DNA from: a virus
DNA length: 64,000 nt
Direction: 5' to 3' (one strand)
Virus record (IMG/VR): IMGVR_UViG_3300019763_000001
Coordinates: 64,001-128,000 of that record
Under the pieces are notes generated by a model. It was not told the DNA's origin and searched no databases. It worked only from the letters and a program-made list of their open reading frames with translations. Shown here one piece after another: positions 21,638 through 21,936 of this stretch. How positions within the stretch are numbered: position 1 is the first letter of the stretch; each line of letters begins with the position of its first letter. A program made the position numbers and the translations under genes.

Positions 21638-21666
21638 TTGACAATATTTATTAAGTTGCTTAATAT
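21638..21666 (+). promoter_or_regulatory. sigma70-type promoter, antisense to structural operon
   Basis: TTGACA-N17-TAATAT. Confidence 0.7.
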
Positions 21667-21701
21667 GTAGTTTCTAGCTTAGCAAAGCATAAACAACACA
21701 A

Positions 21702-21881
21702 GAAAGTTGATAACTGGCTAAAGAGAGGTGAGGTTATGTAACACGTTAAATTTTTATATTTTTATAATAGTAAAGAGTGAAAGTTGATAACTGGCTAAAG
21801 AGAGGTGAGGTTATGTAACACGTTAAATTTTTATATTTTTATATTTTTATATTTTTATATTTTTTATAATAGTAAAGAGTG
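21702..21881 (+). repeat. 77-bp tandem direct repeat x2; second copy has (TTTTTATA) expanded from 2 to 5 units
   Basis: gaaagttgataactggctaaagagaggtgaggttatgtaacacgttaaa(tttttata)n atagtaaagagt at 21702 and 21779. Confidence 0.92.
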
Positions 21882-21882
21882 G

Positions 21883-21917
21883 GAAAAAGACGTTGACATA
21901 ATATCAACGTCTTTTTC
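21883..21917. terminator. bidirectional intrinsic terminator
   Basis: gaaaaagacgttga-cataata-tcaacgtctttttc perfect inverted repeat with A/T tails. Confidence 0.85.
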
Positions 21918-21936
21918 GTTTGAATGGATATGTATA

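What the first reader, a model, noticed from the sequence alone, without database searches (positions are those of the whole stretch)
21638..21920. Stand-alone promoter-tandem repeat-terminator RNA carrying two SD-AUG-UAA start-stop elements
Seen: TTGACA-N17-TAATAT, two 77-nt repeats, then a strong terminator, all antisense within the baseplate cluster and with no real ORF. Each repeat contains GAGAGGUGAGGUU-AUG-UAA, a doubled SD directly followed by start-stop, flanked by a possible AUAAC/GUUAU stem. Inference: an early ncRNA acting as a ribosome, initiation-factor or release-factor decoy (which might tie to the UAG pattern), or a mimic of a type III toxin-antitoxin antitoxin, which has this promoter-repeat-terminator layout.
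Basis: partly seen in the sequence, partly recalled or inferred. Interest (0 to 1): 0.75.

Follow-up and report, generated by a model that had tools for sequence, protein, structure and literature searches.

The report
ORF-less phage cassette with start-stop sites
Between two late tail genes of a T4-like phage sits an inserted, recently duplicated promoter-to-terminator unit whose only "genes" are two perfect ribosome-binding sites followed by AUG-UAA; it is either a small ribosome-engaging RNA or the empty shell of a lost gene, and it has no counterpart in any related phage.

Summary
Promoter TTGACA-N17-TAATAT lies at 21638-21666 (+). Two units follow, 21702-21778 and 21779-21880. They are identical except for an (8-nt)n AT microsatellite, 2.6 versus 5.2 copies. 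A strong hairpin sits at 21883-21917. No ORF is present.

What the tools added:
- The hairpin works in both directions and also ends the upstream minus-strand 659-aa gene.
- The phage's late promoter motif (ATAAATA) lies at 21645-21651 (-), inside the plus promoter's spacer. The repeats therefore sit in the minus-strand dead zone between terminator and late promoter.
- Relatives have 3-95 nt in this gap, against 332 nt here. The block is a lineage-specific insertion at a synteny break.
- The SD pairs with the 16S tail more strongly than the site of any of 200 called genes.
- The exact 19-mer SD..ATG starts real ORFs in 14 of 14 bacterial genome hits, so it is a genuine RBS.

Nothing supports a type III antitoxin: no toxin gene, no Rfam hit, unequal 77/102-nt units and no significant fold. 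The link to UAG fails because the stop is UAA.

No close relative exists, so conservation and covariation cannot be tested.

Best reading, about 0.35: an early plus-strand RNA of about 250 nt carrying two start-stop minigenes. Main rival, about 0.3: the husk of a deleted moron gene, recently duplicated.

The parts
21638..21666 (+). Host sigma-70-type promoter, TTGACA-N17-TAATAT. An A-tract lies upstream at 21618-21624. Inferred start is near 21672-21677.
   Evidence: One search gives 10 of 12 matches. One search shows it shares the 'tgTTGACA/TTGCAA-N17-TAnAAT' form of this phage's intergenic early promoters. It is not significant as a consensus match alone.
21645..21652 (-). Late promoter (AATAAATA) of the VrlC-like gene, 41 nt upstream of its ATG. 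It lies inside the spacer of the plus-strand promoter.
   Evidence: ATAAATA occurs 41 times in the genome. Of these, 26 are intergenic, although only about 8.6% of the sequence is intergenic. Twenty lie within 130 nt upstream of a same-strand gene start.
21672..21701 (+). Unique leader of about 30 nt on the inferred RNA.
   Evidence: Read from the sequence. It has a 14-nt complement to genome 332-345, which is probably chance.
21702..21778 (+). Repeat unit 1 (77 nt). SD 21725-21731, ATG 21736-21738, TAA 21739-21741, AT microsatellite 21746-21766.
   Evidence: The SD duplex with the 16S tail is -13.7 kcal/mol, stronger than all 200 gene sites.
21779..21880 (+). Repeat unit 2 (102 nt). SD 21802-21808, ATG 21813-21815, TAA 21816-21818, microsatellite 21823-21864 (5.2 copies).
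   Evidence: 100% identical to unit 1 apart from 25 extra microsatellite bases.
21883..21925 (.). Bidirectional intrinsic terminator. An 8-bp G+C-containing core stem is flanked by A5 and T5. A T-run follows on either strand.
   Evidence: dG -18.4 (+, z -5.8) and -20.3 (-, z -9.1); inverted repeat I1. It lies 20 nt after the stop of the 659-aa gene.
16754..21604 (-). Flanking gene: 1616-aa VrlC-like structural protein (DUF4815).
21937..23916 (-). Flanking gene: 659-aa lineage-specific late protein. It has no PHROG family and only a weak ConA-like lectin hint below the cut-off.

Best explanation
The block is a lineage-specific early transcription cassette on the plus strand that contains no ORF. 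It was inserted between the terminator of the upstream late gene and the late promoter of the VrlC-like gene.

Host RNA polymerase would start at the sigma-70-type promoter and stop at the shared hairpin. That gives an RNA of about 250 nt. The RNA carries two identical, fully competent ribosome-binding sites: a 7-bp SD, optimal spacing, then AUG followed at once by UAA. An unstructured AU microsatellite follows each site.

Ribosomes would load, form an initiation complex, and be released by RF1 or RF2 without making a peptide. The RNA would therefore act through ribosome engagement. It could be a sink for initiating ribosomes and fMet-tRNA. Alternatively, bound ribosomes could protect it from RNases and Rho, as a strong SD does in known RNA stabilisers.

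The perfect tandem duplication is recent and doubles the number of sites.

Shown: the anatomy, the position relative to minus-strand signals, that the RBS is genuine, and that the block is lineage-specific. Inferred: transcription, ribosome loading and any effect on the cell.
For: - The repeats lie after the minus-strand terminator and before the minus-strand late promoter, so the late transcripts do not need them.
- Six cultured relatives and 68 IMG/VR relatives have only terminator plus late promoter in this gap. The gaps are 48-94 nt and median 11 nt (maximum 95) respectively, against 332 nt here.
- The plus promoter has the same extended form as this phage's other intergenic early promoters.
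- The same overlapping layout of early(+) and late(-) promoters at 38882-38909 drives a real 84-aa plus-strand gene.
- The SD-anti-SD duplex is -13.7 kcal/mol. The 200 called genes have a median of -5.9 and a best value of -13.6.
- The exact 19-mer SD..ATG was found 14 times in bacterial genomes, against about 4 expected by chance. In 14 of 14 cases the ATG opens a frame: 11 are 83-456 codons, one is 36 codons in a 524-nt contig, and two run off a contig end.
- A 7-nt SD + ATG + stop arises in 0.08% of shuffles of the spacer.
- The hairpin has symmetric A5/T5 flanks, as expected where transcripts converge.
- Start-stop sites do bind ribosomes in E. coli (bioRxiv 10.1101/520783).
Against: - There is no expression data.
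- It is a single genome with no close relative, so there is neither conservation nor covariation.
- The two copies are identical. The duplication is therefore very recent and says nothing about selection.
- The unit has no significant fold (z -0.15).
- The promoter is only a 10/12 match in an AT-rich spacer, and part of it is the reverse complement of the late promoter.
- The terminator would be there anyway for the upstream gene.
- Two sites per RNA can only matter as a sink if the RNA is very abundant.
- A microsatellite of unstable length suggests weak constraint.
Confidence: 0.35

Rival explanations
1. This is the husk of a lost moron gene. A small early plus-strand gene with its own promoter, RBS and terminator once sat at this module junction. 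A deletion removed its body and left ATG next to a stop. The remnant was then duplicated by slippage or unequal recombination between short G-AAA-G homologies. It has no present function.
For: - The phage has intact cassettes of exactly this layout, for example at 38882-39215, with promoter, RBS, an 84-aa ORF and a terminator.
- The RBS is a generic one used by real genes.
- The block sits at a synteny break. The ~450-aa upstream neighbour of relatives is absent here, and the 659-aa and 1509-aa genes have no PHROG family.
- It is not conserved anywhere, the copies are identical, the microsatellite is unstable and there is no RNA structure.
Against: - A stop directly after the retained ATG is expected in only about 5-7% of random deletion junctions (my estimate from base composition).
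- Promoter, RBS and terminator are all still intact.
- Phage genomes shed useless DNA. This is the longest perfect direct repeat and the only non-coding microsatellite in the 64-kb window.
Confidence: 0.3
2. This is a transcription-dependent DNA element, such as a T4-type R-loop replication origin. In that type a promoter is followed by an A+T-rich unwinding element and the transcript primes DNA synthesis. A transcriptional insulator between two late units is a related possibility.
For: - T4 oriF and oriG need only a promoter plus a downstream A+T-rich unwinding element of no particular sequence. oriE uses an early promoter and has direct repeats (PMC3016281).
- Here a promoter is followed by 100% A+T tracts of about 25 and 50 nt. 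The region is among the most A+T-rich 100-nt windows of the genome.
Against: - The A+T tracts begin about 80 and 150 nt from the start, not directly after the promoter.
- rU:dA hybrids are weak.
- Cumulative GC skew shows no inflection here.
- T4 origins tend to lie where transcription switches strand. In this genome that place is near 58400-59100, which has odd repeats of its own.
- This reading does not explain a perfect RBS with a start-stop.
Confidence: 0.1
3. This is a decoy RNA for a host or phage RNA-binding protein. Candidates are a mimic of a type III antitoxin against a ToxN-like abortive-infection toxin, or a sponge for the phage's own RegA-like translational repressor.
For: - The promoter-tandem repeat-terminator layout recalls type III antitoxin loci. 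A recent copy-number gain recalls phage escape by expansion of pseudo-antitoxin repeats (my knowledge of phage phiTE and ToxIN).
- The genome encodes a RegA homolog (PF01818, 37 bits).
- The repeat shares 9 nt including AUGUAA with the T4 RegA SELEX consensus (PMC3014915).
Against: - There is no ToxN-family gene in the genome.
- No Rfam family matches even at E up to 10.
- The units are 77 and 102 nt and unequal, whereas known antitoxin units are about 34-40 nt and equal.
- The fold is not significant.
- The match to the RegA consensus is 9 of 15. It lacks the 5' A-tract, and 31 of 200 ordinary gene start sites score as high or higher.
Confidence: 0.07
4. This is a minus-strand or DNA-level feature of the late gene. 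It could be an array of late-promoter-like TATAAAAA boxes, an extended 5' UTR with anti-SD-like CCUCACCUCUC segments, or protein-binding GTTA..TAAC half-sites. A separate point is that the second copy could be an assembly artefact, with two microsatellite alleles laid in tandem.
For: - Seven TATAAAAA boxes lie on the minus strand.
- The complement of the SD resembles the 16S 3' end.
- Three GTTA/TAAC inverted half-site pairs occur per unit (read).
- The two copies differ only in microsatellite length, as population alleles would.
Against: - A canonical late promoter lies 41 nt from the ATG, so the array is not needed.
- Outside this region only 6 of 23 TATAAAAA sites are intergenic, against 14 of 18 for TATAAATA.
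- The minus-strand RNA is unstructured (z +1.2) and lies downstream of a strong terminator.
- An assembly-graph loop would give identical copies, not different microsatellite lengths.
Confidence: 0.1

Closest known systems
Bacterial start-stop sites (E. coli yecJ, hslR; Ribo-RET, bioRxiv 10.1101/520783)
   Same: An SD-like sequence is followed by a start codon and then at once by a stop codon. Ribosomes bind and no product is made.
   Different: The known sites lie inside protein genes and tune their host ORF. These two sit on a stand-alone RNA with no ORF, are duplicated, and have an SD stronger than any gene of the phage.
Phage lambda bar minigenes (Hernandez-Sanchez et al. 1998, cited in PMC2490762)
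   Same: Both are phage-encoded. Both have an SD plus AUG plus an almost immediate stop in an AU-rich context, with no protein product, and both act on the translation apparatus when transcribed.
   Different: bar has one sense codon (AUG-AUA-UAA) and acts through peptidyl-tRNA drop-off and tRNA starvation when Pth is limiting. Here there is no sense codon, so that mechanism cannot apply as such.
SD-type 5' RNA stabilisers (B. thuringiensis cryIIIA STAB-SD, Bacillus phage SP82 polypurine stabiliser; from my own knowledge)
   Same: A strong polypurine SD that is not used to make a protein binds the 30S subunit and protects the RNA.
   Different: Those elements sit in the 5' UTR of an mRNA in Gram-positive hosts. 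Here there is no downstream ORF to protect, and the host is unknown.
Type III toxin-antitoxin antitoxin arrays (ToxI, CptI, TenpI)
   Same: The order is promoter, tandem direct repeats, then a Rho-independent terminator. Copy number can change quickly.
   Different: There is no toxin gene. The units are twice as long and unequal. No pseudoknot-type fold is predicted and no family matches.
T4 R-loop origins oriF and oriG (PMC3016281)
   Same: A promoter is followed by A+T-rich DNA. The transcript need not code. oriG lies in a late-gene region.
   Different: The A+T tracts lie further from the promoter. A terminator and a perfect RBS are present, which origins do not need.

Membership tests
Type III TA antitoxin RNA | A toxin endoribonuclease gene (ToxN/AbiQ/CptN/TenpN) lies directly downstream of the terminator, or at least in the genome | tested here: not met
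   Downstream on the + strand is the antisense of the 659-aa gene. PF13958 has no match in the whole genome at E up to 1. CptN and TenpN models were not searched.
Type III TA antitoxin RNA | Tandem units of equal length (about 34-40 nt) with a defined fold | tested here: not met
   The units are 77 and 102 nt. The unit fold is -8.8 kcal/mol with z -0.15.
Type III TA antitoxin RNA | Match to a curated RNA family | tested here: not met
   No Rfam family matches at the gathering score in the whole window. No antitoxin family appears at E up to 10 in 21300-22300.
Start-stop element | An SD at functional spacing, then a start codon, then a stop codon at once | tested here: met
   GAGGTGA, then 4 nt, then ATG-TAA, twice. 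The duplex energy is -13.7 kcal/mol. The same 19-mer starts real ORFs in 14 of 14 bacterial hits.
Start-stop element | Ribosome occupancy at the start codon | not testable with these tools
   This needs toeprinting or Ribo-RET.
Lambda bar-type minigene | At least one sense codon after AUG, so that peptidyl-tRNA can drop off | tested here: not met
   TAA follows ATG directly.
T4-type R-loop origin | A promoter with an A+T-rich unwinding element just downstream, within about 100 bp | tested here: inconclusive
   A promoter is present. The pure A+T tracts start about 80 and 150 nt downstream. Replication activity cannot be tested here.
RegA operator | An A/U-rich site with a 5' A-tract over the AUG, close to the SELEX consensus | tested here: not met
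   The match is 9 of 15 with no 5' A-tract. Of 200 gene start sites, 31 score 9 or more.
Intrinsic (Rho-independent) terminator | A G+C-containing stem followed by a T-run | tested here: met
   An 8-bp core stem is followed by T5 on both strands. dG is -18.4 and -20.3, z -5.8 and -9.1.
T4-like late promoter | [T/A]ATAAATA 29-130 nt upstream of a late gene | tested here: met
   The motif lies at 21645-21652 (-), 41 nt from the ATG. It is strongly enriched in intergenic DNA genome-wide.

The most novel reading that the evidence does not exclude
The phage makes, early in infection, a small non-coding RNA whose working parts are tandem start-stop minigenes. The RNA would capture initiating ribosomes and cycle fMet-tRNA and release factors without product. 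This would bias the host translation apparatus, or sense it. Copy number would be adjustable by tandem duplication and microsatellite slippage. That would be a new class of phage RNA acting directly on translation initiation.
Probability: 0.2. Interest if true: 0.8.

Novelty: new variant of a known kind. Interest (0 to 1): 0.5.

Why it matters
Start-stop sites and minigenes are so far known only as parts of mRNAs or as accidental toxic elements. A stand-alone phage RNA built from them would be a new kind of phage RNA acting on the host translation apparatus. It would also give a simple natural tool for studying initiation-termination cycling.

If it is instead an empty cassette, it is a clear snapshot of how moron genes are lost and how promoter-terminator shells persist and duplicate at module junctions next to fast-changing tail genes.

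Either way, the analysis fixes this phage's late promoter motif and shows that early and late promoters can overlap back to back.

Tried and rejected
- Rfam, in the region at E up to 10 and in the whole window at gathering score: nothing relevant.
- ToxN family in the genome: absent.
- Copies of the unit elsewhere in the genome: none.
- The exact 19-mer in IMG/VR and JGI metagenomes: none.
- Close relatives sought through VrlC N-terminal peptides and the major head protein in IMG/VR and metagenomes: none closer than about 37-44% amino-acid identity. No alignment, covariation or copy-number comparison was therefore possible.
The second contig said to hold the identical VrlC protein could not be fetched to check the duplication.
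- RegA decoy idea: the phage has a RegA homolog, but the match to the T4 consensus is ordinary for this AT-rich genome.
- Initiator-tRNA link: the phage tRNA(CAT) has a paired 1-72 end and lacks the GGG/CCC anticodon stem, so it is not an initiator.
- TATAAAAA array as late promoters: this variant is not clearly enriched in intergenic DNA, and a canonical promoter lies nearer the gene.
- GC skew for an origin: it follows transcription direction only.
- Trans-target search: the best hit is a 14-nt complement inside an early ORF, about what chance gives.
- Start-stops with a strong SD in ORF-free gaps of 80 related loci (1.02 Mb, 22 gaps): none.
- My own terminator scan was too strict and was dropped.

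Full report
**Setting.** The window is bases 64001-128000 of a 155,493-bp phage record with direct terminal repeats and 35% G+C. The phage is a distant T4-like/Ackermann-like myovirus.
- The window holds a major head protein, portal, tail sheath and baseplate wedge.
- It also holds a 1616-aa VrlC-like DUF4815 protein at 16754-21604 (-).
- The nearest known VrlC proteins are 38-45% identical over the N-terminal 400 residues. They come from metagenome proteins, Vibrio phage YC, and Pseudomonas phages Cygsa01 and pf16.
- No closer relative was found in IMG/VR or JGI metagenomes through VrlC or the head protein.

**The observation.** The finding lies in the 332-nt gap between the 659-aa gene (21937-23916, -) and the VrlC-like gene.
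- TTGACA at 21638-21643, a 17-nt spacer, and TAATAT at 21661-21666.
- Two direct repeats that start 77 nt apart, 100% identical over 65 nt plus a 21-nt tail.
- The repeats differ only in a TTATATTT microsatellite, 2.6 copies in the first and 5.2 in the second. Unit 2 is therefore 102 nt, not 77.
- A 14-bp hairpin at 21883-21917.
- Each unit has GAGGTGA, then 4 nt, then ATG-TAA.
- No credible ORF exists on the plus strand.
- This is the longest perfect direct repeat and the only non-coding microsatellite in the 64-kb window.

**The minus strand.** I derived the phage's late promoter from its own genes.
- TATAAATA occurs 18 times, 14 of them intergenic.
- The core ATAAATA occurs 41 times. Of these, 26 are intergenic, although only about 8.6% of the genome is intergenic. 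Twenty lie within 130 nt upstream of a same-strand gene.
- One such motif lies at 21645-21651 (-), 41 nt before the VrlC ATG. This is inside the spacer of the plus-strand promoter.
- The hairpin folds equally well on the minus strand (-20.3 kcal/mol, z -9.1). It is followed there by a T-run and lies 20 nt past the stop of the 659-aa gene.

The minus-strand order is therefore: stop, terminator, repeats, late promoter, SD, ATG. The repeats lie in the stretch that late transcription does not need. In relatives this gap holds only a terminator and a late promoter.
- The gap is 48-94 nt in five cultured phages.
- The median is 11 nt and the maximum 95 nt in 68 IMG/VR loci.
- The ~450-aa gene that precedes VrlC in those loci has no homolog in this genome.
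- The 659-aa and 1509-aa genes upstream have no PHROG family.

The block is thus a lineage-specific insertion at a synteny break, next to what look like fast-changing tail proteins.

**The plus strand.** A 10/12 promoter match is not significant in this AT-rich DNA: 13 were found against 10.8 expected in 2.5 kb. Context helps, however.
- The site has the same extended form as the phage's other intergenic early promoters. That form is tg/ttg before TTGACA or TTGCAA, 17 nt, then TAnAAT.
- At 38882-38909 the same back-to-back arrangement recurs. The reverse complement of a late promoter sits just after the -35 box, and that promoter drives a real 84-aa plus-strand gene.
- The hairpin has symmetric A5 and T5 flanks, as in terminators that serve converging transcripts.

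A plus-strand RNA of about 250 nt, from about 21673 to about 21922, is therefore plausible but not shown.

**The ribosome-binding site is real.**
- Its duplex with an E. coli-type 16S 3' end is -13.7 kcal/mol. This is stronger than the site of any of 200 crudely called genes, whose median is -5.9 and best value -13.6.
- The exact 19-mer from the A-rich start of the SD to ATG was found 14 times in one genome each of 185,579 species. About 4 hits are expected by chance.
- In all 14 the ATG opens a frame. Eleven are 83-456 codons, one is 36 codons in a 524-nt contig, and two run off a contig end. They span Bacillota, Thermodesulfobacteriota, Bacteroidota and Pseudomonadota.
- Shuffles of the de-duplicated spacer give a 7-nt SD + ATG + stop on either strand in 0.08% of cases.

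The SD-ATG is therefore not chance. It is, or was, a working start site. Here it meets TAA at once.

**RNA structure.** The unit's best fold pairs the AUG-UAA with an upstream segment in a 10-bp stem of -8.8 kcal/mol, but this is no better than shuffles (z -0.15). The whole plus-strand RNA has z -2.9, mostly because of the terminator. The minus strand is unstructured at z +1.2. With two identical copies and no relatives, covariation cannot be assessed.

- Type III antitoxin mimic: there is no ToxN-family gene in the genome and no Rfam match. The units are long, unequal and unstructured. Membership fails. A decoy for an unknown host system cannot be excluded, but nothing points to it.
- Release-factor decoy linked to UAG: the stop is UAA, which both factors read. 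TAG is simply the rarest stop in this genome, 8 of 200.
- Ribosome or initiation decoy: this fits the sequence and is my leading functional reading, but it rests on inference.

**Other leads tested.**
- The phage encodes a RegA-like translational repressor. The T4 RegA SELEX consensus ends in the same 9 nt, including AUGUAA (PMC3014915). However, the score is 9 of 15, the 5' A-tract is missing, and 31 of 200 ordinary start sites score as high.
- The phage tRNA(CAT) is not an initiator.
- T4 R-loop origins need only a promoter and a downstream A+T-rich unwinding element (PMC3016281). The layout partly fits, but GC skew is uninformative and an origin does not explain a perfect RBS.

**Weighing the two main readings.** Both accept a plus-strand cassette with a genuine RBS.
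- The husk reading is that a moron gene was lost and the shell duplicated. It is favoured by the lack of any conservation, the identical copies, the unstable microsatellite and the position at a module junction.
- The functional reading is favoured by the stop falling exactly after the ATG. I estimate this at about 5-7% for a random junction in this base composition. It is also favoured by all three signals being intact, by the SD being the strongest in the genome, and by the doubling of precisely this unit.

I put them at about 0.35 and 0.30. The remainder is shared among an origin or insulator, a protein decoy, a minus-strand or DNA-level role, and an assembly artefact for the second copy.

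**Comparison with known systems.**
- It works most like bacterial start-stop sites, where ribosome binding is shown, and like lambda bar minigenes.
- It cannot use the bar mechanism, because there is no sense codon.
- It also resembles SD-type RNA stabilisers.
- It is a member of no curated RNA family.

**Verdict.** The feature is real, unusual and lineage-specific. The named mechanisms are unproven or fail. Its function cannot be settled from sequence.

Noticed in passing
window 58420-59100: A large non-coding region lies at the switch from minus-strand late genes to plus-strand early genes. It has G+C-rich short repeats of GAGCG/AGC type near 58640-58700. It also has a 46-nt tandem pair at 58835-58868 and 58881-58914, 97% identical, followed by a strong TTGACA promoter at about 58969. 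The crude 81-aa ORF called here is doubtful. It could be an origin or a regulatory region.
   Followed up: partly
window 54105-54144 and 54440-54479: A 40-nt segment is repeated 335 nt apart at 93% identity. Each copy carries a minus-strand TTGCAA-N17-TAAAAT promoter in front of a small gene. This shows promoter-bearing segments duplicated within the late block.
   Followed up: no
window 38882-38909: A plus-strand sigma-70-type promoter (TTGATT-N16-TATAAT) has the reverse complement of a minus-strand TATAAATA late promoter in its spacer. This is the same back-to-back design as at 21638-21666. Here it precedes a real 84-aa gene (38961-39215) that has its own terminator.
   Followed up: partly
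whole genome (G000), and window for the examples: The late promoter motif of this phage is [T/A]ATAAATA. In the nearest cultured relatives (Vibrio phages YC, Bakedbeans and 1.244.A, and Ralstonia phage RSP15) the same position after the terminator reads CTAAGTAC or CTAAATA. In pf16 it reads TATAAATA.
   Followed up: partly
G000:C1:36004-36510 (-), outside the window: A 168-aa homolog of the T4 translational repressor RegA (PF01818, 37 bits, above the cut-off). It lies next to what look like clamp-loader genes.
   Followed up: partly
G000:C1:52-129 and 154433-154510, outside the window: There are two phage tRNA genes. tRNA(CAT) lies in the terminal repeat behind a strong promoter. It has elongator or Ile2-like features and is not an initiator. 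The other is tRNA-Arg(TCT). Stop-codon use among 200 crude gene calls is TAA 124, TGA 68 and TAG 8.
   Followed up: partly
window 16484-16753: A 270-nt gap lies upstream of the 15704-16483 gene. It has a terminator, a TATAAATA late promoter and only short frames. One frame of about 33 codons ends in TAG and has a further in-frame TAG shortly after.
   Followed up: no
window 21690-21703 versus G000:C1:332-345: A 14-nt perfect complement links the unique leader of the putative RNA to the sense strand of an early 89-aa ORF in the terminal-repeat region. About 0.3 such matches are expected by chance.
   Followed up: no
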